This document shows positions 14,118 through 60,408 of a stretch of 64,000 nucleotides of DNA, in pieces (positions within the stretch are counted from its first letter, which is position 1; the number at the start of each line of letters is the position of its first letter). Position numbers and translations under genes: made by a program. The DNA is taken from positions 1-64,000 of the forward strand of contig CAJINV010000036.1 of assembly GCA_905178155.1 (NCBI GenBank). The letters are read 5' to 3'. Origin of the DNA: Amoebophrya sp. A120 (Eukaryota; Protista; Dinoflagellata). The notes beneath the pieces were generated by a model. It was not told the origin of the DNA. It was given only the letters and a program-made list of their open reading frames with translations, and did not search any database.

Positions 14118-17100
14118 ATGCGAGCATCCACGACATCTACTGTCGGTTCCGAGCAGGACTTGAGGGTGAGGGCGGAAGATGGTTTGTCTTCACAAATTGT
14201 GCAGGACCACGCTACTTTAAAGTTTCCCGCAAGCTCGCCCGATTTATTTTTTACGGACGATTCGAGTGTCGAGGAACTTTTTGGTGGCAATAAAGGTAGT
14301 TTTCGTTTTCATTGGGAGCATCAAGAGGAAGAGGAAGAAGAAAAAGATCGTTGCTGCGCGGAAGCGGACTACGACCAGGACAGTGCTGAACTTGAGTCCT
14401 GGCCTAGCCTTTGTTCTGAGCTTCCGCCCTGTGTGTCCGCGGAACAAGAAGACCTTGACGACCAGAATGCAGCAGGCGAGGTGGACCAACCTTTGTGCCC
14501 CTCCACCACGACGACCCAGGAGAAGCACGTGCCTTTTGTGTTTGATACCCCGGGGACTTCTCGCCAACAAGGAAAAATGAGCAATTCCAACCCTACGCTG
14601 CTGAAGAGCGCTTTCGGGTTCTGCGGATTTGCGAATCGAAATAAGACAGGGCAAACGCGAGGCACCCCAGTGCATCAAGAGATGAAAGCAGCACACGACC
14701 AGCATGGGCGACAAGAAGGACAAGAAGGTCTTCCCCCAGCGCAAGAAAAGGTCGGACCTTCGCCAGGAGGTTGTACTGTTGACCAAAGAGCCCAGCAGCC
14801 GGAGCTCAGCAAACCGAAAGCCAGTCAGTATTCGCACCTCCGGCAGATTGGCAACGGAGCCTATGCGACCGTGTGGCTGGCAGTGAAAAAGACACGACCA
14901 GAGACGCACAGCACTCAGGCCGCTTCCGACCCGTGCTACGTTGCCGTGAAGGAGATTTCTCGCGTAGATGCTGAAATGACCGAACGCACGGTGCTGAACA
15001 CCTGGAACGAGCGCAACATCCTGAAGAAACTAACGGAGGAGCAGGTCGGACAAAACAACGCTGGCTCGGGCTCGTCTGCCCTATCGAAATGAAGAGTTCT
15101 ATCGCCACATTTTTCAGGTTCACGCGCGGTCGTAGTAAGTAAGTGCATGTATCATGAAGATGACAATGAATATCAAAAGACTACCAAAAAGCCCGTGTAA
15201 TTCGTCATTTTCCATGTACGCAATAAAATGTGCATTCCTGAAGTGCGGAGCTATGGTGTGCATGACGAAGCCATCCTGCTCATATGATAGAGCTTTTTTT
15301 CGCTTCCATACTAGGCTTCTTGCAAGTTCGTGTATTTGCTGGACAGCTACACGACCGCATCAAGTCTGTATCTCGTTCTGGTATCAAATGCAAATATGAT
15401 ATGTCTGGGTTTAGAGCAGTGCGATTGACTTGTCACGCCTAATTCCAATACTTACCAATGCTGCAGCTGAACTCGTCTCCAATGCTAATGCATCTTACAG
15501 AACAGCGTTTGCGCTTCGTAAGCCTCTGGCATGCAAAAGCGCTACTTTTCATCGACCTTGCCCGTTGTGCATCACTACAGAGACAAAGCACACAAAGAAA
15601 AGTGTGTCCTACCTCCTGACTGCATACCTGATTAATTGATGCTGTACTCTAGTACTATTGGCATGACCACTTTCGAAACCCAGACGCATTCGACGCACTG
15701 CATATGTGGAACTCGCCAACCATTCCTCCGTCTTCGAGCACCTCAAACTCTGCTACAAGCGCCGCTCGGAACAAATGCATGCGAACACGCCCCCGGAGGA
15801 ACGGTGTTGGTGTCTATCGCGCGGGGCGGAAGCCGAGCTTTTGTTGACGCCGTGTAAAATAGATTCATCTACCAGTGCTTCTACTTCTTTTGCGGACGGC
15901 GACGGCGGCAACAAGATGAGCAGTACGAACACGCACGAAGGCGACGCCACAAAAACGAGGATCCCAGCTTGGGAATGGACTTTTGCCAAGGCAGAATGGT
16001 GCGCCCGCGAGATTGCGACCGCATTGAAGTACTTGCACGAGAGAAAGATTGCGTACCGCGACATGAAACTAACCAATGTGATGGTGGATATTAGGAGAAC
16101 GACCACCGGTAGTACAACAAGAACGAAAGCCCCGACCCCGAATCCCGCGCCGACCTACGATGGAGGAGGTACAACTTCTACAGAAAGGACTCCTCTGCAA
16201 CGATTGGTCTTGGTGGATTTTGGGTTTGCCACCGACGACGACGCGCACCACTGCACCCACGTGCAGGGGACCATGCGGACCATGGCACCGGAAATCGTGT
16301 TCCTCAATTCCTCCGACAAGAACGATTCGACTTCTACTATGTTGGACGTCGAACAGGATCATGCTCTAGTTGGCTCTGGCTCTCCCCCGAAGACCTACGA
16401 CGGCTTCCGGGCGGACATTTGGTCCTTTGCGTGCGTGGTGTACGAACTCTTTGCCGTGGGCAGGCATCTGCTCCCGGGGTATTTCGAGGATCTCGAAATT
16501 GACACGCACAACTATCGCCGCGAGTATGATCTCGGTACACAATTCCGCCTCCGCATTGTTCTCCCCGATAGCATCAATCGGGATCATCTTCTTGTTTCTT
16601 CTGCAAAATACTTGCACACCACCAAGTACAGTCGTTGCTTCTGCTTGCTTTTCTTTTTCGGCCCTGTGTGCATGAAAACCACAAGTTAATGACGGAAGCC
16701 CAAGCAGGACAAGACTCCAGATCTGTGCGCAGTTCTTTTCTTCTTTGTGCCATAGCAACATCTTTTTTTATATCTTGCTTTGACCTTCGAACAGTATAGA
16801 AGACAAGGGATTGTGGACTCCCATAGGAAACTGGAACGAACGGTGGCACTGCTGGAGCAGAAGGACCTGGCGGACATGTCGACGGAAAATCGCCGCTTCC
16901 CAAACCATGTGCTGCATGAGGAGCGGTGGCAGCAGGTCTTCTGGTTCTTTCTGAAGTCCACCGTGAAAAGAGACCCGGCGGCGCGTCCCGCGAACATGAT
17001 TGAAGTTATCACCCGTACAGGTGTTACGACTTCAGCTGTTCTTCTTGCAACATGTAAAGAAAAGGAAAGTTCATCTTCATTGGCATTTTCTTTCTGCGTC

Positions 17101-17519
17101 CGCCTCCGTGTCGATTTACTTTGCATGATGATTTTTCCTGTCCACGAGTACAGTGATCGTGCGCGGCCTGACATGTTCCGACGTTTATATAGAAAGATAG
17201 TACCTACAACTTTCCATTTTTATTCTTCGCAGCACTTGAGATTGTAACAACTGAGCGGGCGTCTATAACAGTCTGTGACAGATTCTTTCCGGCGCGGACC
17301 ACTTCATCATTGGAGACGATGCGCTACAACGGAAGAAATCATGCGGGTGAAACTGATTTCCAGGTAGCATTCAGCGAGGACCTGGACCTCGTCAAACAGT
17401 TTTCCGACGACACAAGAACAGGAGAGAGCCCATTTGCTCAGCGGGGGCGCGCGCGGGCACGCGCGTTTCGACTTTTTCCGGCAGCCGAAGACGCCGTCGA
17501 TCCCTTCGAGGGGTATTAG
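14118..17519 (+). CDS. Ser/Thr protein kinase (AGC/PKA-like), multi-exon
   Basis: Motifs IGNGAYATV, VAVKEI, YLVLEL, YRDMKLTN, DFG, GTMRTMAPE, DIWSFAC and a C-terminal DPFEGY. GT-AG intron 15045-15314, one introner; later introns are approximate. Confidence 0.85.
15382..15704. mobile_element. Degenerate family A introner, TSD TCTGG/TGTGG
   Basis: TATCAAATGCAAATAT..ATGTCTGGGT...ACCCAGACGCATT...GCATA. The join restores kinase subdomain V YLVLELA. Confidence 0.85.
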
Positions 17520-18359: not shown

Positions 18360-21300
18360 ATGTTGCTTTCTTTTCGTTGTTGGAGATGTTGCAGGTCATG
18401 GCATCTTCGTATTCTGGTGTGGTTGCACACATTTGGACCAATGCTCCACGCCAATGAAGAATTGTTGTCTTTGCTTTCTGACGCAACTGCTACCTCCAGC
18501 TCCACCTCTCCACCTGTCCAAGCAATTTTCTTTTTAGCACGAGCTGCTCGGTTTCCTGTGCGTGTGCCGTCGTGGAACGACGTTGCTAGCGAGGGCACAA
18601 CTGCTGAAGACGACGGCGTGCAGCAGGCCGGTGAGAAGTACCAGATTCTACACAAAGATTACCGAGGACGAGGTAGCCCCGCTCCTCGTGCACGCCCCGA
18701 AAATCCGACGTTTCAAGTGCAAAATAATGTAGCTCCGTTTACGACGGCCGTCGACCACGGTGTCCGGGAAGAACCTACTGCTACCGACGCGTCGCGACCT
18801 GAGCCGGCGGGCGCGTCTTTCTTGGTCGACGAACCCCTCTTTATCACTGCGACCACGATCTGCGCCGATGAACTACACGTCGATAATTTGTTGCCTAGAA
18901 CATCAAGCACTGGCGACGAACCGCAGCCTGCTCAACCAGAGCGACATGCGGAAGACGTCGCTTCAGGTCCCGCTCCGCTGGGCAGCGCTGTTGGCACCGG
19001 AGATGAGCCGCCAATTGACGACGCTGAAGTTGTACGACCCTCGTCACCACAAGCGATCCGCCTAGGACCCTACCGCAACGCAATTCTCGTACAAGAACAG
19101 GATGAAGACCCAGAGCACGACTCCTTGTCCTTTCCGGCTTTCAAGATGGTTGAGAACAAGAATAGCACAGTGCTCGCGCTAGCTACCACAATGAAGCATT
19201 TCGATCGTCCCTGGCCGGATTCTGTGGCATCCTCAGGCGTTCTTGTAGACTCGGAGGAAGTATTGCCTCTTGATTGCGTAGCTGCTACGTGCCACCATCC
19301 ACGGTATAATTCTGCTACTTCGCCTAGCAGTTCTCTCTCGAGTTTTTCGCTGGGTCCACCGAGGAGTGTAGTGCACGTTGCGGAGCAGAGCCTTGTTTCC
19401 ATGACGCGCAGTGACAGCTTGCTTGACGCCAAGGAAATCGATGTGGAGGTTGATCCTCTAGAAGAAGTAAACAAGGTTCCGGCACAGTACAAAGCCGGGG
19501 AACCTGCAGCTGAACAGGCGACGTCTCCGCCACATGCCGACTACCCGCAAAATTCAACAGGTCAAACTACAGGGACTGCATTTCATGACAACGTGGGGCT
19601 GCCTTTAGGTGATATTTTGAACAATGCTGGTGGGGTAAAAGATGCTACTGAGGATGCCTTCGTTCGGGTAGAGCGTAGCGACGTCGACAGAGTGCGAAAA
19701 CGCAACAAAAATTGTGCTCCAAGAGCCGCGGCTGCTGGAGGGTCAAGCGCTCGTGGTGTCACAACCGCAGAAGACGTTGACAAGTTCGCAACTGAGTGTT
19801 CGGCGACGGCAAGAAGCGGAAAGGACAACCTCCCCGGACTTGAAGCTAAGAGTGGTAGTTGTGCAGCGACAACCGCAAAACGCTCCGGACCATGCCTTGC
19901 GGTCGAGCAACGACCTCAAGAACTACATCATTCCTTTTGCGTTTGTTCCGCAGGTTCTCCACTACTTTCACGGCCCGTTTGCGCGGCAGATGACCTCGAC
20001 GACGAGCCAATAGAAGTGGAATCTACTGCTGGTAGTAGAAGCCAACAAGAAGACCACGCTGCTCTCTACTGCGCCAACAGCGACCAAGCCGAGGCCCGTT
20101 ACTTTCTCTTTGAGGAGTTGCTGCGCATGGTGCGCGGCCCGGATGCGCGCATCGACCGCTTTCAGATGCGGGAGCTGCTTGACCTCCTGCAGCTGCCCAA
20201 TTTGATGGACCATTACATGACGCACCAAGCAAATGGCCCGGACTCGCCAGATGTCGACTGGCTGTCCTTATGCGGTGCGCAACTCCCCCGTCCCGCTCCT
20301 TTGGACAAAGGCCTGGGCAGGAACACAAGTGAAAGTAAGTACCACTAGCAGCGTAGCTTTCGCATGACAGATTTGCGCGTAGCATGATGTACGTAAGTGT
20401 TCTTTGGGGGGCGGTCGAACTTCGTCATTCGATTTGATAAATGTATGACCGGGCACGCGTGGTCTTGCGAGCCTGTGAGCCAAGGCCGACAGTGGTCGGT
20501 CTATATTTTATGAGCGGGCTCAACCCGCCCATCACGGTAACCAAAACCTGAGTAGCATGAATATGAACCAGACAGGGGCGCAGTTTTGCGTTGATTTTCC
20601 TGCTCTGTGTTTGACATGCTGGGTTTTCAGGGACTTGCGCCCCTGCCGATGGTAGCTTGATTGTGATTCGCCGAGGGTGATTAGAGCTGCTATTTTGCTC
20701 TGCCTTAGGCCGATTTATTTCCTCCTGATTTCTCCAGTTCTGGAGAGGGAGAGTTTATTTTCAATCCTAGTTTCGGATTATGATTGGTCTCCCCTGATTT
20801 CTCTCGTTCCGGAGAGGGGGAGAGAGTTTATTTCCAGTCCTAGCTTCGGGCTAGGTTGGATTTCTCCTGATTTCTCCCGTTCCGGAGAGGGAGAGTGGTT
20901 TTATTTCCAGTCCTAGTTTCGGGCTAGGTTGGACTTCTCCTGATTTCTCCCGTTCCGGAGAGGGAGAGTGGTTTTATTTCCAGTCCTAGTTTCGGGCTAG
21001 GTTGGACTTCTCCTATTTTCTCCCGTTCCGGAGAGGGAGAGTGATTTTATTTCCAGTCCTGGTTTCGGACTAGGTTGGATTTCTCCTGTTTTCTCCCGTT
21101 CCGGAGAGGGAGAATTGAGTTTATTTCCGGTCCTAGTTTCGGTCTAGGTTGGAGTTCTCCAGATTTCTCCCGTTCCGGAGAAGGAGAGTGATTTTGTTTC
21201 CAGTCCTAGAAGTTTCGGGCTTGTTTGGATTTCTCGTGATTTCTCCCGGTTTGGAGAAGAAGGATTTGAGTTCCCGTCCTAGCTTCGGACTACGTTTGAT

Positions 21301-24300
21301 TTCTCCTGTTTATTTTCCCCCGATCTGGAGAAGGGACATTTATTTTCAGTCCGAGTTGCGGACTATGTCGGATTTGTGCGGTTTTCTCCCGTTTCTGGAG
21401 AGGGAGAATGTAACTCCGGTCCTAGTTCCGGACTAACTATGTTGGGCGTCTTCTATTTTCTCCAATTTTGGAGCGGGGGGCTTCGCCCTAAGTCCGGGGG
21501 TTTGAAGTATGCCCCAGATTTCTAGTTTCCAGCTCGAGGGAGGGAGGCTCCGTCCTGTTTCGGATGATTTCTTTGCGAGTGGCCTCCTATTCCCCCCTTG
21601 CGAGGAGAGAGTAGGGAATCCATTTCCCCTTCGGGGTCGATTTTGTTTGATTTTCGCATCCGTTTGTGATGGCGGAGTGAGTCTCTGCTTGATTTCGCAT
21701 TTTTATTTGCCGCGCTTTCCCCGTACAAATCGGAGTATCCCCCTTGTGTCTCTCAGCGAGCGTGTTTCAGTCCTGTTGTTAGTCGGGCTTGGAGCAGTTT
21801 ATCGCCACACATCTCTCGTGCTGGTGAGGGAGCATCGGCCGCGTTTATGCCGTTTCTTCGGGGGCTTCTCCACTCTCCCCGCTCGGGGAGTGGGTTTCTC
21901 TTGGATTTCCACTTGTGAGGGCAAGAAGTCTATTGCCCCAGGTTCTCCCGGGTGCGGAGAAGGATTTCAGGGTCTAGCTGCAGGCTGCTTTTCTGCTCTA
22001 ATTTCCGGCTTCTGCCGGCTTTGGTTTTCTTGTGGGTCTCACTTTATTACTCATTTTCGAGATGTGCTTGCCCTTGCAGGCTTCTTTCTCGAGGTCTACT
22101 TGCAAGGTTTTGCTCCGTTGTATTCGACATGGGGCGCCATTCTGACCTTGGTTATTTTCATTTCAACCTTGCTCGGCTTTGTGGCACTGGCGGTTTGAAT
22201 CCGTTAAACCTAAAAGAGGGCAGGCGCGAGATGGAAAGGCTAGGGATGCGCCCGGCGCCTCGTGCGCCGGGGTTTTGTTTTCGCGGATTCTTTTGGTTCC
22301 GGTTTCCGGGTTTCTGCCGTCCCTAGCTCCACGAGCCGAGTCGAGGGCTTGAGATGAAATGACCAAGGTCAGCGATGGCGCATGTGGCGCAGGTTTTCCC
22401 CTGTCGGGATGTTTTCTTTCAAGGTATTCCGATTCTCCTCTGGAGGGGGTGATCTTTCTATATGGAGCTTCGTGCCCCTATGTTGTTTGCCTGTGGTTTT
22501 AGGACATCTTCAGATCCCTGTTGTACAGGGTGCGAGGAGTGTTGTGTCAAGAGTCGATCCGGTTGCATCATTACGCAGCGATGTGGTATCCTCTTCCGAA
22601 TCCTTTGCCCGCCTTTTTCGGTTCAGGGGGCGAGAAGTGTTAGTCCCTGGAGAGAGGAGGTCGTCGGGCGTTTTTGTTGGGTGTCTCATGTTTATCGGGC
22701 AAACTTTCGTATGTGTGTGTGAGGATTCTTGGCAGGATTGTAGGGGGCACTGCGCCTTCCCTGCAGGGCTTGGTCCTTTTCTTTCTGATGTCGCAGCATG
22801 CGCGTTGACCGGATCACAAGCATTACCTCGAGGTCCATTTGGCATGGTCATGGGTGTTAGTGTTTCTCGAGGTCCTCACGGCCATCGTCGCTGAGGTGGG
22901 TGTTGTTTGCTTACTGCTCCAGAGGCAGTCTTAGTGAGTTCGCGCGCATCTCCGGAAGGGTGTCGCAGATGACGGCTCCAATCTTTTCATGGGCTCCGGA
23001 CTCTCTTTCCCTGTGTCATGGTGCCGGGTGGCTCCGAGTTTTCTTTGCACGCAGTGTCTTCGGAAAGGATCCCGCGCCGAAGTTATTATTTCCGTTTGAA
23101 ACACACAGCTTGCGCGGGCGTTGTGGCCACCGCCGCGAGGTCTACTCTTGTGCTTTGGAAGGTTCCTTCCTGGATAGTTGTTTGGTATGCAGGTCTTTGA
23201 CCTGGGGGCGCGTTCATCCCCGTGGGCTCTTGATCTGAGTACTTCTTGTTGCTCGATGACTTTCCAGCATTTCCCCGGCCGCATCCCGGCCGAGTTGTCA
23301 GGGTTGAGACCTCTTTCATCAGTGTGCGAGTGGTCAAGCGCACTACGTATCCGAAGTGAAGCCGGAGCTTCCGGGGAGTTATTTCCTATATTAAATGTTC
23401 TTACGCTGATTCTTGGGCAGCGCTTCTGCCACTAGCTGCTCTTGTGGTTTCGGTAGTTGACAAGGATTTTGCTAAGGGCCAGGGCGAAGGCGCTTTGTTT
23501 CGCCCTTTTGGAGCCTTGTTGGGATGCTGTGTGACAGTCTTTGGCATCTCAGTCGGTGTCGTCGCACGCACTCTTGCGTGTGGGGCGGCTGTTCGGTACC
23601 CAAATTCATCTCCAGCTGGTGCCGTAGGGTTCTTTGGGTCGCGTCGATGCGTTGCGTCTCCGCCGGTGGGGTAGGCTCTCCACATGCTTGGTCGCGGGCG
23701 CCTGCACCTCCTGACTCCCGGAGCGCACATCCAACGATGATCATCCATAGGATGATCTATCCGTCGGAGAAGATGTTGACTAGATCATAAAATGTATGAC
23801 CGGGCACGCGTGGTCTTGCGAGCCTGTGAGTCAAGGCCGACAGTGGTCGGTCTATATTTTATGAGCGGGCTCAACCCGCCCATCACGGTAACCAAAACCT
23901 GAGTAGCATGAATATGAACCAGACAGGGGCGCAGTTTTGCGTTGATTTTCCCACCCTCCCGCCCCTCTTCTTTTCTTGTTGTCTCTTCTTCCGAGCGGAT
24001 GGATCATGAGGCTTCGCGCCGCTTCATTTTTGAGGTGTGACAGAAGCCCATCACTTGCATTCGGGAACGGGGGTAGGCTCTCCACATGTTAGGTCGCGGG
24101 CGCCTGCACCTCCTGATTCCCGGAGCGCACATCCAACGATGATCATCCATAGGATGATCTATCCGTCGGAGAAGATGTTGAGTAGATCATAAAATGTTGC
24201 ATGACACAACCTGAGGGGTACGAGTCGAAGATGTGCACTCTCATAGTCCTTCCGGACGGAACTGAAATCTTTGCTGGCAACGTCGCTAGAGTCACGGTCC

Positions 24301-37740: not shown

Positions 37741-39229
37741 TCCTATAATGCCGCTCGGTGAGACTGGGAACGCCAGCATGCACCTTGTGGTGTAGTATTT
37801 TTCCTTGCAGAAGCATAATTTTGTTCTTTTCTTCAAATAAACAGAATATTTCAAACTCATATTTCATTCCAGTGCCGCGACCGCAGATACCTGCGTTTGG
37901 CTTTCCCGCAGTCACTTTGCAGTCCGAGAATTCAGAGGATCCCTACCCCGGGGGGCGTGGCAGTAGCATGGTGTCCTACCCGGATGACGGGGCACATCCA
38001 GAGGCGTACCGAAGCACTTTGTCCTACCCCGCAAGCCAGAACGAGCAGCCGGAGCCGGCCCCGGCTGTCGATGCTGCGAATATGGACAGAGCAGTCGAAC
38101 TTCCGCAACCAAGCTCTATCACCGGCCGTGTTACCGAGCCCGTACCACGGCTCGCGTCCGCAGCAGCGGCTGTGGTTGGGATCGCTCCGTACTACTAGCT
38201 TACTACAAACTTTTTTTTACTGATTTCATGACAAGAGAATATATCTCTACAACTACATGTCAGGGCGTTGTGATTGTGTACCTGCATCCTGCATGCTTGA
38301 TGTCATGATGAGGTGGTAATGTTCGATGGAGGATTGACATGATTTACGATTTCCGGATACAACAATCATCAAGGCAGCACGCAAAGTGCATGATCGATTG
38401 ACATCAGACCCTCGTCGATTGCACGGGACTCAACGAACACAATCGAGACATTTGGCAACACCATAACCCCTGGAGAGAAGTCCCTTGCAACAATTCCTGC
38501 GGAAGTAGAAGATGCAGGACGGAACAATAGCAGTGGAAGCAGTGCCAGTGCCGCAAAAAAAGCTACAAGTGCCTCTGGAAAGACGAAACAAAACCGGAAA
38601 TCCAGAACTTCCGTCACCGAGGCACGAGCGAAAGGAAAAAAGGAGGAGGACAAAGCTACGAAAGCTAATAGCGCAGTGCCCGCGACTATCAAAAGAAAAT
38701 AAAGGTGTTACACTTACAGCAAACACATTTCTTGGAGCAACTTCAGAAAAAGAACTAGAACAAACTTGCTGTGCATGGCAGAGAAAACTTGCAATTCAGA
38801 GATCATAAGGGAAAACACGAGGCAACCAGACCTGGTTGCCGGCAAGCACGCCTGCTTTCCGGCAACCTCTTTTTTGCGTGTTCTGCAACATAATGTCGTG
38901 TAGCAATTGTAACGCTTTTTCCTGTGCATAGCGCCGGCAGCGGGAACGAGCCCGAGTAAGCAGTCCGCATCCGCAGTTTCGGTTTCGACAACCGGAACAG
39001 GGGAACGAACTTCCTTTCAGAAGAGGCAGGCCCGCAGCTCCAATTTTCGGAGCATTAAGGAGATTGATTCACGGCAACTGGGCTTCAAACAGCACGGACA
39101 AAACCAGAAGCGCCTAGAGCTCGCGCTTCGAACATCAAACAACATCATGCAGCAGGTACTTAAGTACTTACATATGAAGAAAGTATTATCAATGTCTAGC
39201 GATTCGTAGCACTGGTCAGAAAACAAAAC

Positions 39230-47264: not shown

Positions 47265-48513
47265 ATACGAACTCATTTCATTTTTACTGTAATTCGCGTG
47301 CAAAAATTTTTACACCAGGACCCCGCGAAGCTTTCACTCGTCGTGCAAGACGCCGCACAGGACCCGCTTGACGAGGGTATCAACGAAATGACAACGCAGT
47401 GGCAGCGACGCGAGCGCGCAATGCGTGAGAAATCTGGAAACACATAGCAGGCCGGCTACCATGTTTGATCAAGATACGATTGGCCCGGGCACCCTTGTTG
47501 TGCTCAGCAATTTTTGTTGGTGCGCCCGCAAGTACTAGTCCTGATTGCGAAGTAGCCTCCGTGATGACGATTTGATTTTTCGCTAAAGTGTTTCGGTAAT
47601 ATCCTAACTTTCACTTGTGCTCGCAGGCAACCCGCATGGTGGCGATGAACTATGTTTTTTCATTTTCCCCCCGTCTATTTGGGGCGAAAATTGTAATACT
47701 TGGTTTCGTGCTGTATTGCAGTACTTCTGCTTGCACTCTAAGTTCTTAAAGACCACTTGACATCCAGATCCACTAAAAACCATGACTCAGTTTTAGTGGC
47801 ATGAAAATGCCAGTAGGCTTTCTTTCAGCATCTTTTCATTTTGTCTGAATTTGGTTTTGTATTTGTTCGCAATCGATATCAATCACATCACATAAAAAAA
47901 AGACCGGATCCACGCGAATTGTACTCGTCACACGCCAGATCACGATCGGCCTCGCAGAAGATTCGCAATCTCGATGACCAGTGTTCTGTTTCATTAAGGA
48001 GCAATACTTATTTTGCGGAGATGTTGTGTATTTTGTTTTTGAAAAGATAACACGAGGGTTTCGATCTCGCAATTTTCTACTAGAAATGGATCGCTGTTGT
48101 CTTCGAATATACGAAATAAAGCCTGTTGGAGTCGTGGCATTTACCAGCAACGGAGTAAGGTATACTATCGTGATCGCACAAAATAAATCGTTATCGACGT
48201 CATTTCTCTGTGGATCATGAATACAGGTCCGCCCCCGCGATGTTTACTCCAATAAAAATCATTTAAGACTCATTGCGCCCTCGTTCAAACATTCTTAGTG
48301 CCCCAAGGACTAGTTGTAGTCTCATGACGGAATCCGAATCATGGGGCTGGTGGAGCCAACAATTTGTTTTTGTTATCCATTGGACGCAAGAATCTTCGTC
48401 GTCATTCCTCCGGCACTAATAAAGTAACAACAAGGAAAGGACTATCTAACTTAAACTTTATCTTTAGGACATACTCTTGAAGAGTTCTTGCACGACCTGC
48501 ATCAAAAATTACC

Positions 48514-49596: not shown

Positions 49597-50531
49597 CAGT
49601 TGTCCAAAAAGCGTTGAAAAGTCGACCGAAATTCCTGGATACTTACCAAGAATGTTGAGAGACGCTTGAGCGCTGGCCAAAACGCGTTTTTCATCGGTCG
49701 TTGCCCAGAAAAGGTTGCTGTTCTTTAACTCTTTCCACCTTTGCGTGAGGGCACCGCACGTTTTCAAACAGAAGTGCCGAGAGCATGAGCGGAGAAGCGA
49801 AGCATAGTGTTCCCTGTTTTGTGAGAGGCTTTGGTAACTCCCCGGGTCTTCTAGCTCTGATCTGGAAAAGCAAGTACACGTGGTGAATGAAAGATCTCAA
49901 TGGACCATGTTGATGAGCACAAGATGGATCCGATACATACTTAGCAAGAAATAGCAAGACGTAAATGATGTCTGCAGGTGGCATGAGCCTACGAGAAAAC
50001 AGCTCTTGCAAGAATATCCCAGAGAGTACAAATGTTGTTCATCTGTGTGGTTGCGCACCCCACCGTTGTATTAGCGTGCTATATCTAGTATAACGAAAAG
50101 ACGCTCCGAGAAAAATGGAAAGACAGTATATGTATAAATGTGATTTAGAAGAACACGATGAGAGCCTGAAATACATAGCAGTGAGCTACTCGTCTGAGGT
50201 GTATGCTCGCAACAGAGGATATCGCCGGAAATACGACAGCTTCTGCTAGATCTATCATTCCATCTTGTTGTTTTATCGAGCCAGCGATTGTCAATGTGAG
50301 TAGCTTTGATTTTCATTTTCTTCTTGAGTATATATAAAAGTACAGTGTTAAAAGACCCATGTCTACTAGTGGTGGAGGTGTATTATCAGGCCCCACCTGG
50401 CAGTAGGGGGGACGACGACGCCAAACCCAAAGTAAGCGCTTCGCAACTGCTATTACAGGAAAGCGACGAAATTCCTACCAGCGCGCTTCTTTACCATCTC
50501 TGGTGCTACTTCTTGATCTAATAATTTACGT

Positions 50532-52427
50532 ATGCTCCCCATGGATTTCGAAGAGTGGGGAGAGAGTAGCGGCGGCTCCCAGTTGGGAAGCTTTGCGCAG
50601 CTGGTAATTTGCGGTGTAGTTGGCTGGTATTTCGTGCGGGGGAATCGTGCGGAGCCGGCAAGTACGACCCCCTCCTCACCCTCGACCAGCAAATCAAGAA
50701 AAAAGAAGGACTGTGCGGGTGGTGTTAGTAGCGACGACGAGCCAATACAGGATGCAGCACCCAACCACCTGCGGCCGAAAAAGAGCCTGGCCAATATGAC
50801 TTGTTCAAACTACCACTCGTCCCACTCTCGTGGTCTCCAAGCTCTACTTGTGCCTCGACGTCTCCCATGATGATACCTTGCAACTGTCTCTCATGTTTTC
50901 TAAACGCACATCTGTTTGAGTTTGACAGTATCTATTAGTAACGATTTGCAGGAGGTGGAACCAGATGTGGGACAATAGTTTGAGCAGGTGATACGCATGG
51001 CCTACTTTTTCTACATCTCCGGGGGATTTCTGACAGGCTCACACCACTTATACCTGGAGAATTATGAGTACAACTTATATATTGGATACCGCTCCTGTGA
51101 TTTAGTCACATGCCTCTTGTTGAATTGAGGTGTCAACTTTCTTTCATTTCTTTCAAATAGAAAGGCCTGAAGCCCGTAGGTGTATCATCTACTACGGTGA
51201 GCAAGACCACGTCTTCATGAAGGCTACAAATCTAATAAGCCACTAGACTGCGCCAGCGGCGCACAGGCACAGCCACAGCCCACTCGGTTCGTCAGGCCGC
51301 GCAACAACCGTATATTTAGACATCGTCGAGACGCGAAATGCAAAAATGAATCATCAACACTTTTTCAGGTACGGCACGACCTACTTGTTCACCCTGGGGT
51401 ACTTCTTTATCGGCATGTGCGCCGATGCGTTCCTGCTCCCGGTATATGTATACAACCACAACCGGAACGTGCACCCCCAGGCCGTCCAGGAGTCCTTCCG
51501 CGTCTGTCAGTTGCTGTGGAGGTTCTGCAAGCTCTGCTTGCTCCTGAGTGTGCTTTTCACGGCGTTCCTCGCCTTTTTCCCCGTCACGTACGAGTACGCC
51601 ACAGGGGAGTTTTTGGCGAACACCAACGGAGTATGAGACTGCACAAATGTTACTCCTCTCGTCGTCACGCGTAAGCATACAACCACACCATACATACGAG
51701 GATTCTGTTCTTGTCTTTTGGCACTGCTTGCATGACAGCTTCTATCTTCCCGCAGCCATTGAATTTGAACTCGAAGATCGCGCGGGGGCTTGTCATGCAG
51801 TAGCGACAGTTCTAGTTGTACAACCAATCAATGCTTGTGTTATTGTTCATGCCCTTCAAATGATGGAGGGGGGACCGCTTGTGCAAGCTCATACGAGGCC
51901 ACGGTGATGCAGAACCCCTACGACGTTCTGGAGATACCAAGGGGCAGCACCATGCCGGACGCTCACAAAGCCTACAAAAAGATGTCGATGAAGTACCACC
52001 CCGACAAAAATTCCAGCGCTGACGCCAAGGACAAAATGGCCAATGTCAACGCCGCTTACGAAACGATAAAAAAGGTACTTCAACATCTACTTTGTGCTTT
52101 CATGATTACACTTGTTGTTGCATTCCCATTCTTTATCGCAGCTCCGCGCACCTGCTGAAAAAAATCGACAAATGATCATTCCAGGGCACGATCGGGCTGG
52201 AATTCAGTGAAGACGGACTGACGGAGATGGCGGAACGATGGGTGGAGAAGTGGAAAACGCTGCTGAACTATTTGGAAACCTCGTCCAAAGCTCGCAAAAA
52301 GGAGAAGGAGGACAAGACCAAAAAGGCCAAAGAGACAGAAGACACACCATCGGATGGAACGACCAACAAGAAAACCAGCGACAAAAAGAAATCATCTTCC
52401 AGCACAAGGAAAACAAAGGGACGGTAG
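50532..52427 (+). CDS. TM2-domain plus C-terminal J-domain membrane protein (DNAJC22/Wurst-like)
   Basis: KKSLA.AYFFYISGGFLTGSHHLYLENYEYGTTYLFTLG and NPYDVLEI...AYKKMSMKYHPDKN...VNAAYE. Two introners plus GT-AG introns (51068-51368 and one from ~52075). Confidence 0.8.
50795..50993. mobile_element. Degenerate introner, family E, decayed TSD GCCAA/CGCAT
   Basis: TATGACTTGTTCAAACTA...TAGTTTGAGCAGGTGATA imperfect TIR. Removing 204 nt restores the TM2 motif. Confidence 0.75.
51632..51893. mobile_element. Degenerate family C introner, TSD CGGAG/CGAGG, now bounded by GT...AG
   Basis: TATGAGACTGCACAA...TTGTGCAAGCTCATA. Removing 267 nt joins the TM region to the J-domain exon. Confidence 0.85.
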
Positions 52428-53893
52428 AGAATAAAATCAAAATCAAAGTCACCCCTACATTAGATATAAAAACATGTCGAGTTTTTTCAAAGAAACTGCG
52501 CGATCTTTGCTACTTCTATCTACCCCCATCAAGAATTTGTCACGTATTTGTAGTAGTACGTAGCTCTTCTTCACAGAAGTGATTCGGCTTCCCGTGAAAA
52601 CCAAGTTTTTTCTACATTTCCCTCGCATGTACTGACTAGTACTCCCCAGCAACGCGCACTGGCCCCATCCTCGACGCGCATTCTTCAGCTAGAGGCTAAA
52701 GAACCAGCGCATTGTCGAGAGCCCTTGTACGAAGGCGGCGACTTTTCATCTTTTGCACAGTCACAAACTTTCTTATGTTTGTGTGGTGGTCGTTCGAAGA
52801 ACAAGACCGTGCATAAAACATTTTTGTTGTGCCTTTGCAATCGAAGGACTCGCATCTTCAATACGTGCTTTCCAGCGAGGAGGACAAAAGTACACGGAAG
52901 ATCCGATCGCTGCAGCAGCCTGTTCTCTTTCCATACGAATACGGTCCCGGTCGTGTGTGTTCACCGCAGAGAGGGACCCGCATCCATGGGAACAATGTCG
53001 TGAGCCCGAGAAACAGTCGCAGATTCGTGTGCCGTTCGTGCGTCATTTATTTCTGTTTTAAGCGTGATGTCCAAGTATTATGGACCGAAGCTTCACAAGA
53101 AGAATAAACCTACATCCTGGGGAGCAAAAAAAGAAACAGCCGTTCCAGACTTTTTGAACTTGAAGAGAGGCAAAAATATCCTCGTCCTGGTGGGTGAAGA
53201 AGCCGAGCAAGCATGAGATGACGAGTAGACGGCGACCCAGTTTAGGGTGAGGTGAGCAGTGCTATTGCTTCTATTCACACCGAGTCGGAGTCGCTCAATG
53301 AAAAAACTAAAAGCGTTATCTTCAATTTCACGCTCACCTTGAAGAGAAGGAGAAGCGCGCGCGTCATTCAATTTCTCTTTCTTCCAGTTCCAGCTTGCAT
53401 CGCTGAGCTCGATTTGCAGTTTTCCCGAGAAGATGGACCTGCAGTTCTGCACGTTGCATCATTAAAATTATTCAAAAAAAGCAAACGTCGACGCCGTCCA
53501 CGTCTCGTTCGGACAAGGAGACAGCGCAAGGTGGCATCCATTCGGCTCTGGGTGTAGATTCTACTAGTTCTGCGTCTAAATTTAGTCCCTCCATTGCAAA
53601 GAAGGCTAAGAATGACTGTTGGCGCAGCGGGAATTTCTTCGGCTGCAATGCCACAAGTGCTTGTGGGGAAATTGAAGGTTCTGGGCGAGACTTTTGGACT
53701 AGTCGAGGCGGCAGGCACAGAACACCGCATCCCGATTCCGACTGGCGTTTGTACTACTTATACTTAATCGATGTCTATATATTTTGAATGTATCAATTGA
53801 ATCTTTCTCTTTGTCTTTCTGGTTCTTCATCGTGGCGAGGCACATTGTCGTTCTAATCATGAAACACTTTGCAATTCGCAATGTGAACTACGT

Positions 53894-54739
53894 ATGGACA
53901 CGAAAATAAATATTTCAGTCGTGAAGCCGGGTCAGCTCGTGGGTTTCACGGTCAGTGGGGGATCCACCGAAAGCGAAGTGTGGGTTGCAGTCGACGGAGT
54001 TGACCAAGATATTGCAGAGCGAAAGTTTCCGTCGTGTGTGGGCACCGTAGCAAGGAGGCGTTGCGAGCCGCCCTTGCCCTTGGCCGATGATCTGGATGTC
54101 AACGTTCCTGACACGACCGCTGATCCAGCCACGGCCGAGCACGTCGATAACTCCTTCGTTCTGCGCGTCCGTGTACCGCGCTGCAGCGAGAGCGACCGCG
54201 TCGATCAAGACTCGCACGGCACGACGGACGCAGGAGCCGCTGCAAGAACCATCCGCCACAGAAGCACGGAAGAGAACATTGACGAGACAGAAGATGACAC
54301 CATAAGTACGAAAGCAAATTGCGGGAACAAAGCTAGTGGCACGACCACGCGAACGAGCAGGGCGAGTACGATGGCATCATCCACAGCTACACCGTCGTCG
54401 TCAAGCAGTAGTTCATCTTTTTGCGAGTACAACCCGAACGACGACGGCTCGCAAAAACATTTCCAAGAGCAAGTTCAGCAAGGGAACCCTTTCCGGACCT
54501 CGGGTCTGGCGGAGAACGAGGTGGACACCGCTGGTGCTGGAGCTGGGGCTTCTACAACCGGGACAATTACAGCGCCATTTGTACCATCAGAGACTGCAGC
54601 AGCTCGCATCCAGCAGGTGGAAAATCACGCTGGTGTCCCAGCAGATGAAAGTACTAACTCGCACAGAGGCATCGTCCCCCCAGAAGACGCACAAGAACAA
54701 CAAGATGAGTACCCAGCTTCGAACTTTCCCAATCTTTGA
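53894..54739 (+). CDS. Hypothetical protein exon; true start probably upstream
   Basis: 281-codon ORF with coding-like composition; no family recognised. Confidence 0.45.
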   Translation: MDTKINISVVKPGQLVGFTVSGGSTESEVWVAVDGVDQDIAERKFPSCVGTVARRRCEPPLPLADDLDVNVPDTTADPATAEHVDNSFVLRVRVPRCSESDRVDQDSHGTTDAGAAARTIRHRSTEENIDETEDDTISTKANCGNKASGTTTRTSRASTMASSTATPSSSSSSSSFCEYNPNDDGSQKHFQEQVQQGNPFRTSGLAENEVDTAGAGAGASTTGTITAPFVPSETAAARIQQVENHAGVPADESTNSHRGIVPPEDAQEQQDEYPASNFPNL

Positions 54740-54899
54740 AATCACTAACACGGTACGTAAAGAAAACAGCACCTCTAGTAATCAGGCATGTTCTTGCATG
54801 CACTTGCAAAAAGAAAACTCGCACGCGTTGTGATCTTCTTTGTTCATCTAGGACGTCCACGCTAAGATATTGTAGCACGGAACAGGCATGCGCGCAACT

Positions 54900-57800
54900 T
54901 CAGACCGAGTGGAAATTGGGATCGATTTTCGTTTTCAAGATTCCTACCAGGACATCCCGATTCCCGAGAACCTGTTGGAAGCAGCCCGAAGGTACCTGCT
55001 GCAGCATAGCTGCTTTTTAGATATTCTTCTCGCTATCCATGATCCAACCAATATGTATATCCTTCAGAATCTGAATGTGAATCATTATCGTGGTCATGTG
55101 ACCGTGCCCGTGCGGTAGCTAGAAGTATGCCATTGGCCTGTGAGTATGACTCCCAGTCCGATCTTCACATGACAATAACTACAAGCATTATAACACACAG
55201 GAGTCTACAGGAGCCCCTGGCAATCGGAGCGGTGCTTGCGTGTGAAGTGCAGAACGGCGAAATCGTTGCAGGCCCTGTCTGGAAACAGATAGTCGCAGGT
55301 AATGTAAGTTGTAGCTGTTTTGCTGTCATGAACATGCACATATTGGTCACAAAATCTGTGAGACCTCCCAGATACATCACTTGCCTGACTCGGAAGTTGA
55401 GACTTCCACGCGAAACGATTTTTTGCGAGGTAGTTTTTCCGCTTATGCCACTGACAACTGAAACTGTCCCCATCTGAGGCAAGCCGAGCCGCGTTTCTCT
55501 TCTGTGTCATTCTCGATAAGAGTCATGAAAAGTCTCGATGCAATACCAATGGAGTTGCAGAAATTCTCCTGTGTGGCAAGAAGAATGAATGACCGCATGC
55601 GAAACTGCGGTTCTGCCTGCTGTGGGCGGACCACGTAGATTTTTGAATGCGATATCGAGACGCGCCTGTTCCCGAAGCGCGCGGCCACGAACACCGAAGC
55701 CGATGCCAGCGACGCTCCAACAACCACGGCAGCAGCTACAGGTGGCGGCAGAAAAAACGCGCTAGCGGAAGAAGCAGACTTCAATGCGGCACTGCAGGCG
55801 GCGGAAGATCTGATGAACCTCGAGTTTTCGACAACGGCCGGAGGTGATCATGACGTCGAAATGCGTCCTTCTGAGGAAGAGATGCAGACGCAGGCCGCTG
55901 CAAAGCTGCCACAGGACGCAAAGGCAAACTCCTCCTCGAGTACTATATCAGAGAAAGAGCTGCAGCATGAAGGCGCGCAGGAAAAGCCTTCTGCCGAAGC
56001 TTCTGCAACAGGAGCGGCACCGGTACCAACCGGGACGACACCCGCCACATCCTCGTCCTCCACCACAGCGCAGAATAACATGCAGGGAGTGCATATGGAA
56101 GCGTCGGGATCTGGACCGAAATCAACAAAATCGAAATGATTTGTGATGCATAAAAACGCTACCAGTTGGAGCCTCATTTTCCAAGTGGGGCATGACAAAT
56201 TTCGGGAGCAACAAAATCCAGCCTGTCATGCTGTTTGGGCAAGGAAGGCTGCTCCTCTCATGCTACTCTGGCAGCGCATCGCCTTCCCCTAAACGGGCCT
56301 GCATTCGGTCCCATTTGCCTCCTCCCCAACACAGGCCATACGTGCCCTACATTTTATGCATTACAGATTTTGTAGATTTTGATTCTAACACCTCCATAGT
56401 GCACTCCGCTAGATCCGCGCGGAGTCGGCATTACTGGTGTGACGACGACATCGACACGAATTTAGAAAACATTCGTATGGGCACCGTGACGTCGACCAGC
56501 ACCCCAGACAATGACCACACGGTGATCATGACCATGAATCGAGAAATGATCTTTTGCCCGACCGAGTATCTGCAAAAACTTCGGCTTGCGCCCGGCACTG
56601 ACGTCGCCTGCTCCGTCTATACTGACGAAGATGGGCATCCAGTGGTAGTTTGTTACTCCACGTTTTTCTGCTTCTTGCTGGTTGAGAAGCAAAGAGTAAA
56701 TACATACGTAGAGCTGCAATCCTGATAGCTATATGCAAGAACGAGCTTGGTACTACAGTCGCCTGCTAGTTCACAATTTCAACTTCTCTTTCAGGCCGAC
56801 AGCAGCAAACCGCTCTGGGAGCTCTCCACGCCATTCTATCCTACTGATAGCATTTCTCACATCAAGACCACGACCGAGCGCTAATATTGTAAACAAGCAA
56901 GATAGAAACTACAACTTTTTTGACTATGCATAGTACTTGTTACGCGGTGATCTCCGCAGCTGAAGATCCTGTTCTAGACATGTTGTCGACGACATATCTA
57001 CAAAGGCGAGATGAGACCGCCGCATTTAATTGCAGTAAATACAGTTACATCGGTCGTGAGCATGTTTTTGTTGTTGTCATGCAACTATTGACGAAGGCGC
57101 AATCCTGAAAGACGCCATGTGCCGGCACGACTGATTTCTAGGATTCTAAGGAATGCTACTTTTTCCAGTATTTCTTCAAAGAGGAGCAGGTGCCATTCTT
57201 TGGCCAGTACTACGGACGCGTGATAAATCTAAGCTCGCACGTATCATACAGAGAAAATGCAGAACGTAGAATTCGCCCTAGACCAATACCATTGGCGTAG
57301 GCAAGGCTCTTGTAGATCGGGGCTCCTGTCGTTCTTGCGATAATATCGGAGCACTGGAGTATTGCTTTCCGCCCAGCAACTACTAACTGTCTCTGTCAAG
57401 CGCAACAAGCGCATTCCGGCGCGCGTGAAAATAAACAGAACGACGCTTAGCTGCAAGCGCAAGCATTGGTTCGCGGTCTCGCGGCTGCATTTATTCCTTT
57501 TGTGTCGATACCAGGGAAACGGCTTCATTGATTGCGACGCGCTGAAAACCGAGTACGGGCACGACCCTTTTGTCCACCAAAAGATTATGCGTCTCTGCGA
57601 CATCCAGCTGGGGGACATGATCAACTTTACCGTGCACATCAACAGCAGTGGCACGCCCCAGGTTTCTGCCCCGGTTTGGCGGAAGTGCGAGGAAAACCGG
57701 AAGAAATTACCTCAAGTAAGTGCTGTGTTTACCCATTTCTGAACCTTAGTTGCCTTGGTACTGGTGGTATATATTCAGGTATTTGCATTCCCTAGCTAAT

Positions 57801-60408
57801 TGACTTGGCCGTTCGACATCAAAGCGGGTGTTTTTTGGTCAAGTACTGGTAGCAAATTGTTGAAAGTGAAACACATTATGCCGGCCACTTACTCTCAGGA
57901 ACTCAATGAGCGCGTACAACAGTCACTCGCTCGCCTAAAGAAGCGAGCACGCAATTGATGTCAATTTCGTTTCAGGAACACCAGCATCTTCAGCATGGGA
58001 AGGGCAGCGGACGACCGCAGCAGTCAGTCTTGGAGCAAATGAAGGGCGCAGCCGGGATGTACATGAAAGGTGGCTCGTCGTCGTCCCTCGCGATGAGTAT
58101 ACTGAAAGGCGGCGTTTTCCCGCCCCATCCTGGCGCGCTGAGCATGATGAAGGGCGGCGTCGCGCCATCGGCGCACCCACAGCTGCGCATCCCCGATCCG
58201 ATGCTCTCGTGCCCGGCCGGTTCTCTGGGTGCCTTGATCGGCAGTCCGATGGAGGAGCAGTCCGCGCGAAGCAGCCCCTCCTTTCCGATCGGCTCGACTA
58301 CCCCCAACCAGCAGCAGCCTTTCGGTACCAGTGTCCTAACCCCTGGGGGTTCTAGCGCGACTTCTCATCAAGGCTCTTATGGCCCTGCGACTTTTGGAGG
58401 TGCAACTAACAGAAACCGGAATCAACCCCGCGGCCACCCTTACGGCGCCCAGGCAGCTGGATCTGGGTCACACTTCTTTGACAACAGCATGAAAAATGGA
58501 TATGGAGATATGCTGGAAGAAAACATCACACAACTTGGTGTCCTGCTACCTCTTACCTGAACCTGCCCCTTGGAGTTGGAGATGATGGCACCTCCACCTC
58601 CTGTGCTTTCGGCTTATAGACATGATTAAAAAACTAAAAGCCTTCGACGTTTTTCTGTGCATTCGTTCCATCTCTGTTCCGTTCACCAATCTCGTTAGAC
58701 AGGAAAAAGCTCGAGTCGAAGGAGGTAGGACCACCTGGACAGCACCATCCATATGCCGTTGATTTGGTACAACGTGTACAAGGTTTTGTATGATTTTGAA
58801 AGTACTATAACAGGACAGCTTGTGTTCTGCTGCATAATCTCAGTCTCGTCTAGGGCGCAGATGACAGGAAACGGCAACTCGTCCGTTTCGCCGAAGGAGT
58901 ATCTACACCTTCAGCACGGTATGGATTGTAAAAATGTCTGGGTCTGGAACATTGAAACTTGTGATGCTAACTTTGGACTCTAGAAAAATCTGTATTGCAT
59001 GACCAGCAAGAGGAGTCTACTTTGTGCTACGCAGGGAGGGCGTTTGTCATGCGGAGTACGCATCAGGAAGCCCTCTCAAAATCTGTGATGCGCGGTCGTG
59101 CATTACAGACATCCTAGGTCATGCAAAACATGCATGACATATCTCAGAATCTTCCAGACCCAGACATTTTTACATTTGATACACGGGAACTGGGAACTGA
59201 CGGGCGTCATGCCCAACTCGGCTGACGCTCGGAATCCGTTGGCCTTCAATCCGGACTGCGAGGGCTGTCTGAAAAACACCAACACCATGGGGCACGGGTT
59301 TCTCGCTTGTCCTGCATTTCCTGGAGACGATGTCTTCGTTCACAAAAAAGTAATGGAAAGGTACCACGCCAAAATGTTGATTTCTCATTACCAGTTTTGA
59401 AACTCCGCATCTTCAAGCGATTAAAAAGATATTTTGATTTCGTTTTCGTACCGTCGAAAATAATGAAGATATTTGAACGCGCAATTCATTTTCGTGAAGT
59501 AGAGCAACGGCATTTGTCGGATCCCAAAACCAGGTGCAATCTCTCCGTCGGAGATCGGGTCCGGTTCAATGTGCACGTTAGTGCTACGGGCACTGCGCGT
59601 ATCCTAGTGGAAATAATGTCTTCCAGCGATAGCATTACCAGGGTGCATGTGATGTTGAAACAAATGCCTTCAGGAAAGAATCTGAAAAAGGCAGCAGGTT
59701 GCATAAAAAGAACCCAATATGGACGCACTCCTATCTATGCATCACAACCAGGGGGCAAAGAAAATCCTGAGTACGTCGCAAGTCCGGCTGATCTTTTACC
59801 TTGGATAGCGCAATGCTCGGCACCGGTGTGGGTGTACCGTGGGCCAGCGCCGATGATGTACTGAGTCATCTTCTAACACTATCACCGCCAATAAGTATTT
59901 CCCTCACGACTTCAGATGAACCAGAAACCTCGGCGTGGCGAGCGACGGTGAAACGCCATCAGTCGACTGCGCATCCATTTTTCCCCCCCGACTGCTGAGA
60001 ATAGGCAAAACTTCGAGGAAGGTTACGGCACCGGAGGATTGCAGTAGTTTAGATGATTCTATCGGAGGCAAATGTGTCTGGGTCGCGAAGACTGCGTATT
60101 AATGTTTGTCAGGCATCTTCTGGAGCACGCAGCAGCTGGGCATGGGATGCCAAAAAAGCATTACAGGCTGTGAGCAGAAGGCTTCCTCATCATGTCTGCC
60201 CAGCATGCGAAAACGAAATTCGCTATTCGTGTAAGAAGAAGAGGGCAGGAGCTTTGTTAATTTGTATTTGGCCGACACGCAATACAATGATCTTCTTTGC
60301 GAATGCGATTGCGATTCAGTCAGACGAGTCAGCATGACATTCAAGGACCAGATATCTTTGCACTGGATAGATTCGACGCATGGGTTTGATCTCATCGACG
60401 AAACGTAA
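54900..60408 (+). CDS. Multi-exon protein with repeated cold-shock/OB-fold-like domains; start approximate
   Basis: GNGFIDC...DPFVHQK...GDMINFTVHINSSGTPQVSAPVW and GHGFLAC...DVFVHKK...GDRVRFNVHVSATGTAQCSAPVW, plus two more degenerate repeats. Four introners and several GT-AG introns. Confidence 0.65.
56094..56398. mobile_element. Introner, family D, TSD GTGCA
   Basis: TATGGAAG...AAATCAACAAAATC...TGATGCATAAAA pairs with TTTTATGCATTACA GATTTTGTAGATTT...CCTCCATA. Removing 310 nt joins ORFs 55813 and 56192. Confidence 0.85.
58920..59181. mobile_element. Introner, family A, TSD CACGG
   Basis: Family A TIRs. The join gives HLQHGNWELTG. Confidence 0.92.
59600..59807. mobile_element. Highly degenerate introner, TSD GCGCG/GCGCA
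   Basis: TATCC...GGATA ends. Removing 213 nt restores GTAQCSAPVW, colinear with the paralogous repeat GTPQVSAPVW. Confidence 0.8.
60060..60369. mobile_element. Degenerate family A introner, TSD GATTC
   Basis: TATCGGAGGCAAATGTGTCTGGGTC...GACCAGATATCTTTGCACTGGATA, flanked by GATTC on both sides. Confidence 0.82.

What the first reader, a model, noticed from the sequence alone, without database searches (positions are those of the whole stretch)
51627..51898. Decayed TSDs suggest the splice register and an introner converting into a GT-AG intron
Seen: four old copies have mismatched TSDs: TCTG|G vs TGTG|G (15382), GCCA|A vs CGCA|T (50795), CGGA|G vs CGAG|G (51632) and GCGC|G vs GCGC|A (59600). 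One rule gives a plausible protein in all four (YLVLE, SLAMAY, TNGAT, GTAQCS): keep bases 1-4 of the left TSD and base 5 of the right TSD. The intron then starts one base before the element (N-TAT, with T at +2, mimicking the GTAT/GTAC donors nearby) and ends 4 nt into the right TSD. Under this rule 51631-51897 reads GTATGA...AG, fully canonical, and 59599 has gained a GT. Three of the four decayed copies start with GT. Inference: as TIRs erode, boundaries drift toward GT-AG, a route from transposon to ordinary spliceosomal intron. The register is not uniquely fixed by these four cases.
Basis: inference. Interest (0 to 1): 0.85.

Follow-up and report, generated by a model that had tools for sequence, protein, structure and literature searches.

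The report
Fixed cut rule for Amoebophrya introners
In the plankton parasite Amoebophrya A120, small hairpin-ended mobile elements are missing from spliced transcript assemblies at one fixed offset (one base before the element, four bases after it) whatever letters lie at the cuts, which likely settles a border that the genome paper left open; the proposed drift of old copies toward normal GT-AG introns was not seen.

Summary
The window is Amoebophrya sp. A120 DNA. The elements are its published introners: TAT…ATA ends and a 5-bp target-site duplication (TSD).

The splice register is confirmed. Three copies allow only that cut. The intron is N-TAT…ATA-NNNN. In old copies the TSD decays (28 of 50 positions differ) while the terminal triplets mostly persist (57 of 60), so the element ends likely carry the signal.

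The drift to GT-AG is not supported. 51631-51897 is GT-AG, but it has the best-paired arms of 10 old copies. In 334 copies from a related genome, G at +1 is 29% in decayed and 30% in intact copies, and AG is 6% and 8%, with no trend against TIR score. A weak hint remains in the window's old copies (AG 3 of 10 vs 0 of 15, p=0.05), and the oldest class is undersampled.

Likely mechanism: a relaxed spliceosome reads +2U/+3A and cuts four bases past the stem.

The parts
51632..51893 (+). Introner element (TATGAG…CTCATA, 262 bp) in a TM2+DnaJ gene; arms still pair well
51631..51897 (+). Spliced intron at register 4, GT-AG; TSD copies 51627-51631 (CGGAG) and 51894-51898 (CGAGG)
   Evidence: joint 51630>51898 in X1 and X4, one base ambiguous
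50794..50997 (+). Intron AT-CA around element 50795-50993; TSD 2 of 5 matches
   Evidence: joint 50791>50996, registers 2-4
59599..59811 (+). Intron GT-GC around element 59600-59807; TSD 4 of 5
   Evidence: joint 59594>59808, registers 0-4
15381..15708 (+). Intron GT-TG around element 15382-15704 in a kinase-like gene; TSD 4 of 5
   Evidence: joint 15378>15707 in X4 only, registers 2-5
15081..15314 (+).
   Evidence: joint 15080>15315, no ambiguity, X4 only
16524..16829 (+). Old copy; TSD 2 of 5; intron GT-AA; registers 3-4
   Evidence: joint 16522>16829 in X1 and X4
17006..17271 (+). Old copy; TSD 3 of 5; intron TT-AG; registers 2-5
   Evidence: joint 17003>17270 in X4
55443..55658 (+). Old copy after a 13-nt microexon (55430-55442); TSD 2 of 5; intron TT-GA; register 4 only
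   Evidence: derived from joint 55301>55659 with 10 letters between, X1 and X4 (table 5c)
58508..58840 (+). Old copy; TSD 0 of 5; intron AT-CT; register 4 only
   Evidence: joint 58507>58841, no ambiguity, shorter side only 30 letters, X1 and X4
38686..38934 (+). Copy with TSD 4 of 5; predicted intron CT-GC; outside both RNA lays
20268..24249 (+). Perfect-TSD copy carrying a nested insertion of about 3.7 kb, removed whole (3982 nt)
   Evidence: joint 20263>24246 in X4; repeats
54709..54943 (+). Exception: RNA-supported GT-TC intron that starts GTAC and lacks ATA at -7; possibly a very old copy
   Evidence: joint 54708>54944, no ambiguity
58919..59185 (+). Example of an intact copy with RNA support. 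Others with RNA joints: 45389-45542, 60059-60373. Without a shown RNA row: elements at 1619, 1862, 2482, 5943, 10086, 11303, 11602, 12220, 30913, 56094, 63392

Best explanation
These are Amoebophrya A120 introners that transcript assemblies lack at one fixed register, from one base before the TAT end to four bases after the ATA end, and they are likely removed by a relaxed major spliceosome guided by the element's own ends rather than by GT-AG. Steps. (1) Shown: the element sits between two copies of a 5-bp duplication, and removal of element plus 5 nt restores the frame. (2) Shown in contigs: the mRNA keeps left bases 1-4 and right base 5. (3) Shown: positions +1 and -4 to -1 take any base, while TAT and ATA persist in old copies. 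(4) Inferred: T and A at +2/+3 stand in for the same positions of ordinary GTA donors, and the paired arms bring the ends together and set the 3' cut four bases past the stem. (5) Speculative: the branch adenosine lies in or next to the terminal ATA (-7 or -5). Because the boundary letters come from the target site, about 2-3% of copies are GT-AG from the start; 51631-51897 is most simply one such case or an isolated later change, not a stage in a general drift.
For: All 9 mismatched-TSD copies with RNA joints include register 4, and 3 allow only 4; the chance is about 1e-4 if each cut were uniform over six registers. The DNA-like run X5 covers 13.5-29.3 kb in all 30 bins and shows no joints. 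Of 13 non-GT-AG introns shown in the two lays, 12 have TAT at +2 and ATA at -7. Old copies show 28 of 50 TSD mismatches but only 3 of 60 terminal-triplet mismatches. A copy with a 3.7-kb insert is cut at the same borders. A DNA-only test in the related genome ranks register 4 best (24 of 37, p=0.05). Predicted canonical donors have A at +3 in 92%. Departures at element bases 1-2 are 3 at the 5' arm and 10 at the 3' arm, while at base 3 they are 12 and 5 (Fisher p=0.025, post hoc). In PMC7789003 Table S4 all nine leading A120 non-canonical motifs start NT and all nine A25 motifs start TT; nearly all spliceosomal proteins are present and U1 snRNA was not found.
Against: All RNA evidence is assembled contigs from one study, and the RNA label is a guess, so minor alternative cuts would be hidden. 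Three of the four kinase-gene joints are in one contig of X4. 19 joints were not shown. One intron (54709-54943) lacks the ATA. The terminal-triplet count is partly biased because copies were recognised by that shape. Some old copies pair no better than mismatched arms (55443, 59599), so a stem cannot be the whole signal. No call tests spliceosome involvement, lariats or a branch point. The bases at -10 to -8 vary, so there is no strict branch consensus.
Confidence: 0.7

Rival explanations
1. One reading: the register is the same, but as the arms erode, selection fixes G at +1 and AG at -2/-1 and turns old copies into ordinary spliceosomal introns.
For: In the window, AG occurs in 3 of 10 decayed copies and 0 of 15 intact ones (one-sided p=0.052); G occurs in 4 of 10 and 3 of 15 (p=0.26). 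Two AGs (15314, 51897) lie only on the intron-side TSD copy. At TSD base 5 the intron side is a purine in 12 of 15 purine/pyrimidine mismatches (p=0.035, post hoc), or 14 of 19 with the window added (p=0.06). PMC7789003 reports the repeat organisation in 15% of A120 canonical introns, which by my arithmetic is about 21% of repeat-bearing introns, against 9 of 240 by chance here. The GT-TC intron at 54709 could be a half-way state.
Against: Related genome: G 27 of 94 decayed vs 71 of 240 intact; AG 6 of 94 vs 20 of 240; for TSD of 3 or fewer matches, G 7 of 27 and AG 2 of 27; no trend with TIR score or nearest-copy distance. Direction tests are flat when pooled with the window (G 12 vs 8; AG 5 vs 5). 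GT-AG already occurs in 6 of 240 intact copies. There is no hidden excess among 137 predicted canonical introns (4 candidates vs 5 and 7 in decoy frames). The GT-AG copy has the strongest arm pairing of 10 old copies. 4-6% of predicted canonical introns have an 8-nt inverted repeat anyway.
Confidence: 0.2
2. The register is the same, but removal is not spliceosomal: a structure-specific nuclease and ligase cut at fixed offsets from the base of the stem.
For: There is no sequence requirement at either cut. Intron length from about 150 nt to 4 kb does not matter. U1 snRNA was not detected (PMC7789003 section 10). The excision mechanism of euglenid nonconventional introns with similar geometry is called unknown (PMC4770533 abstract).
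Against: The +2T/+3A match to canonical donors, and the weak 5'-specific tolerance of TAC, fit spliceosomal reading. Canonical and element introns alternate in the same genes. The spliceosome removes comparable introns in Fritillaria (passage). Copies with weak stems are still cut exactly.
Confidence: 0.22
3. There is no single register: cuts vary within the TSD, as the published figure legend says, and assembly hides the variation.
For: The PMC7789003 Fig. 3 legend calls the sites variable. Contigs drop minor forms. One intron breaks the shape rule.
Against: Three copies allow only register 4 and all nine include it. At copies with 0 of 5 TSD matches, other registers would change the protein.
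Confidence: 0.06

Closest known systems
Introner elements / non-canonical introns of Amoebophrya sp. A120 (Farhat et al. 2021, PMC7789003)
   Same: Same organism. TAT start, about seven variable bases and then an A run, inverted and direct repeats, multi-copy families, removal from RNA.
   Different: The paper gives direct repeats of 3-5 nt, no clear splice signature and a border that 'remains unknown'. Here the TSD is 5 bp and the cut is fixed at -1/+4. Its Table S4 and its wording on four upstream nucleotides may already hint at this; I could not see its figures.
Euglenid nonconventional and 'intermediate' introns (Milanowski et al. 2016, PMC4770533)
   Same: A stem with fixed offsets from the cuts (+4 to +6 with -8 to -6), non-canonical borders, and occasional GT or AG ends read as possible conversion.
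   Different: The offsets here are +2 to +4 with -7 to -5, and +2/+3 are fixed. Euglenids favour a purine at +1 (51 of 55), whereas here +1 is nearly free. The conversion idea is therefore not new in principle.
Fritillaria borealis non-canonical introns (passages in PMC11282704, bioRxiv 2025.08.15.670264, PMC13326754)
   Same: Derived from TIR transposons; described as removed by the U2-type spliceosome.
   Different: There the splice sites are the TIR termini, with fixed dinucleotides such as AG-AC. Here both cuts lie in TSD-derived sequence with free letters.
TSD-co-opting introners such as those of Florenciella and Symbiodinium (PMC9860276, passages)
   Same: Splice positions fall in the duplicated target site.
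   Different: Those recruit canonical sites from the target. Here intact TSDs are near neutral (G at base 5 in 102 of 346, AG at bases 3-4 in 28 of 346).

Membership tests
Amoebophrya A120 introner elements | Host is Amoebophrya A120 | tested here: met
   An exon matches P0001, named A120, at 100%
Amoebophrya A120 introner elements | Inverted repeat starting TAT, about seven variable bases, then at least three A | tested here: met
   End profile from the related genome; intact window copies fit; the A run is eroded in old copies, 26 of 60 positions
Amoebophrya A120 introner elements | Direct repeat of 3-5 nt at the borders | tested here: met
   5 bp in 15 of 25 window copies, decayed in 10
Amoebophrya A120 introner elements | Repeated family membership | tested here: inconclusive
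   Met for 14 of 14 intact copies searched. For 51632 only the ends match another copy (E=1e-8). 7 of 10 old copies have no library hit at E<1e-4
Amoebophrya A120 introner elements | Removed from the transcript | tested here: met
   13 copies with joints in RNA-like contigs; no joints in DNA-like X5
Non-autonomous TIR DNA transposon (MITE) | TIRs, constant-length TSD, many short copies | tested here: met
Non-autonomous TIR DNA transposon (MITE) | A cognate transposase that mobilises it | not tested
   No whole genome is held. PMC12130899 passages mention an integrase-like TIR family in A120; it was not linked to these copies here
Canonical U2 spliceosomal intron | GT…AG ends | tested here: not met
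   1 of 25 window copies and 8 of 334 related copies; met only for 51631-51897
Canonical U2 spliceosomal intron | Lariat branch point and spliceosome dependence | not testable with these tools
   Needs lariat sequencing or inhibition
Introner-to-canonical conversion series | GT/AG frequency rises with element age | tested here: not met
   Flat in 334 copies; weak AG hint in the window only; oldest class undersampled

The most novel reading that the evidence does not exclude
Amoebophrya runs a spliceosome without a recognisable U1 that has dropped the G at +1 and the 3' AG for most introns. It defines the donor as N-UA and measures the acceptor a fixed distance from a branch adenosine supplied by the transposon's own terminal ATA, so tens of thousands of insertions became introns at any target site. 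A25 would reach the same +2U/+3A donor with a different element (TTA start at +1).
Probability: 0.4. Interest if true: 0.8.

Novelty: new variant of a known kind. Interest (0 to 1): 0.55.

Why it matters
About 65% of A120 introns are non-canonical, and their exact borders were published as unknown (PMC7789003). A fixed rule lets tens of thousands of them be placed exactly. It replaces an apparent jumble of dinucleotides with one signal (N-TAT…ATA-NNNN). It also makes the open question of how this spliceosome picks sites testable by lariat mapping and by mutating +2/+3, the ATA and the spacer. It shows a way for a transposon to become an intron with no target-site requirement. The negative result matters too: single GT-AG copies are expected by chance and do not show conversion. 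The elements themselves are known, and I found no statement of the register in the searches or in the text I read; unseen figures and closed-access papers may contain it.

Tried and rejected
No whole genome is held, so the genome-wide test was run on 630 kb of a related assembly found by a motif scan. That sample is biased to element-rich loci and shares no detected gene with the window.

Raw-read runs X8 and X9 covered only repeats (3 or fewer of 30 bins) and gave no evidence. No listed holder is on record as RNA.

Gene-parser calls with TIR score under 4 are unreliable: decoy frames gave as many. I dropped 30 of 364 calls before the count of 334 and 36 of 460 for unclear strand. On the window the first parser run missed 3 RNA-supported old copies and the GT-TC intron.

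The ancestral TSD at 51632 could not be read from homologues: the closest is 43% identical and the linker is not conserved.

Candidates at 11986-12157 and 16338-16610 were rejected. The first is better explained by a predicted canonical intron, and the second conflicts with the RNA joint.

Whole-intron folds of four old introns were at most modestly better than shuffles (z from -1.9 to +1.5).

Earlier scan notes held nothing on this genome.

Full report
WHAT THE WINDOW IS. An exon of the gene around the finding matches, at 100%, a protein named Amoebophrya sp. A120. It is a TM2+DnaJ protein and contains SLAMAY and TNGAT; that gene model may rest on the same RNA data, so it is not independent. 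I found 25 elements with TAT…ATA ends in the window, 15 with a perfect 5-bp TSD and 10 with mismatches. They fit the A120 introner elements of Farhat et al. 2021 (PMC7789003). Of that paper I read the abstract, passages, sections 10, 11, 12, 16 and 25, supplement passages and supplement part 3 of 5 with Table S4. I could not see its figures; Fig. 3 and S19-S23 may bear on the register.

OBSERVATION. The four TSD pairs, the GT…AG at 51631-51897 and the four peptides are as stated.

REGISTER. I laid contigs of runs guessed to be RNA on 44501-64000 (X1, X4, plus raw-read runs X8 and X9, which covered only repeats) and on 13501-29300 (X1, X2, X4, plus X5). They behave as RNA: they skip 11 ordinary GT-AG introns, while X5 covers all 30 bins with no joint. 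Register k means that k bases of the left TSD are kept. The allowed registers are: 15382 {2-5}, 50795 {2-4}, 51632 {4,5} and 59600 {0-4}, which intersect at 4. All 9 include register 4; the chance is about 1e-4 under a uniform choice among six. Of the 13 non-GT-AG introns shown, 12 have TAT at +2 and ATA at -7; the exception is 54709-54943 (GT-TC). Limits: these are contigs from one study, 19 joints were not shown, three kinase-gene joints are in X4 only, the 58507 joint has a 30-letter side, and the 55444 junction is derived from a joint with 10 letters between. A DNA-only codon test in a related genome also ranked register 4 first, weakly (24 of 37, p=0.05). Published Table S4 is consistent: all nine leading A120 motifs are NT-NN and all nine A25 motifs are TT-NN. 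Aligner preferences could contribute to that pattern.

WHAT CARRIES THE SIGNAL. In 10 old RNA-supported introns, including the exception, the TSD copies differ at 28 of 50 positions and the terminal triplets at 3 of 60 (partly biased by recognition). Two copies with no TSD match at all are still cut exactly. A copy holding a 3.7-kb nested insertion is removed whole. In 334 related copies, +1 and -4 to -1 are close to background composition. Predicted canonical donors are GTA in 92%, so N-TA shares +2/+3 with them. A scan that did not require TAT found 3 departures at element bases 1-2 of the 5' arm and 10 at the 3' arm, against 12 and 5 at base 3, mostly TAC (308 copies; p=0.025, post hoc; a few rows are probably mis-paired). 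I infer a relaxed major spliceosome helped by arm pairing. No call tests that step, and two old copies pair no better than mismatched arms.

DRIFT TO GT-AG. A motif scan returned 141 loci of assembly JACKZZ01, merged to 630 kb, with the same families at up to 96.6% identity. Strand calls agreed between neighbours in 240 of 245 cases. First pass, 424 copies with at least 4 TSD matches: G at +1 was 23/79, 30/111, 48/150 and 26/84, and AG was 5, 9, 13 and 5, from weak to strong TIRs. Second pass, a gene parser that scores the five TSD-derived bases neutrally, 334 of 364 calls kept: intact copies G 71/240, AG 20/240, both 6; decayed copies G 27/94, AG 6/94, both 2; three or fewer matches G 7/27 (95% interval 11-46%) and AG 2/27 (1-24%). 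Rank correlations with TIR score are about zero. The quartile most distant from any other copy has G 31/84 and AG 4/84. Mismatch direction is balanced when pooled with the window (G 12 vs 8; AG 5 vs 5). Among 137 predicted canonical introns there is no excess of ATA at -7 and no excess of hidden elements over decoy frames. The GT-AG copy at 51632 has the best arm pairing of the old copies, and at least one GT-AG among 25 copies has probability 0.47 by chance.

The DNA-only sample also under-represents the oldest copies, which are 5 of 25 in the window at two or fewer matches. Verdict: no general drift over the ages sampled; late, rare conversion remains possible (about 0.2).

COMPARISON. Euglenid nonconventional introns have a similar fixed stem geometry, and possible conversion was proposed there from a single GC-AG case (PMC4770533, abstract and section 9). 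Fritillaria's TIR-derived introns are described as removed by the U2 spliceosome (passages of PMC11282704, bioRxiv 2025.08.15.670264 and PMC13326754). Other introners co-opt canonical sites from the TSD (PMC9860276 passages). PMC12130899 and PMC11453091 (passages) discuss A120 introners without a register in the passages shown. I did not read Roy et al. 2023, Henriet et al. 2019 or Huff et al. 2016. Searches listed no paper stating the register.

VERDICT. The elements are known; the cut rule is confirmed and, as far as I could check, unstated (register about 0.93; spliceosomal route about 0.7). The headline conversion claim is unsupported. Interest 0.55.

Noticed in passing
window 20268-24249: An introner carries a nested insertion of about 3.7 kb with split direct repeats (162 nt at 20439 and 23790; 128 nt at 23668 and 24070) and a 73-nt tandem array. 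The layout resembles tyrosine-recombinase retroelements (recalled, not tested). The whole 3982 nt is spliced out.
   Followed up: partly
window 54709-54943: RNA-supported intron with a canonical-type GTAC donor and a TC end, no ATA at -7 and only partial arm pairing. It is the one exception to the shape rule.
   Followed up: partly
window 55430-55442: A 13-nt microexon between a canonical intron and an old introner.
   Followed up: partly
window 27700-29140: An RRM gene that looks like spliceosomal U1A/U2B'' (resemblance recalled, not searched). Its three RNA-supported introns are all canonical.
   Followed up: no
window 615-836: A near-perfect 222-bp palindrome with internal repeats, unlike the TAT family.
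   Followed up: no
window 35620-37740: A tandem array with a unit of about 380 bp.
   Followed up: no
window 3118-6230: The last-exon segment of the first gene recurs about four times, separated by repeat-like DNA; one copy carries an introner at 5943.
   Followed up: no
merged JACKZZ01 loci: At mismatched TSD base 5 the intron-side base is more often a purine (12 vs 3), and at intron position -3 more often C (14 vs 6, p=0.12). Both are post hoc and not reproduced in the window.
   Followed up: partly
L069 contig, merged position about 3364: A likely element with a perfect TSD whose 3' ATA appears changed to ACA. Splicing is unknown.
   Followed up: no
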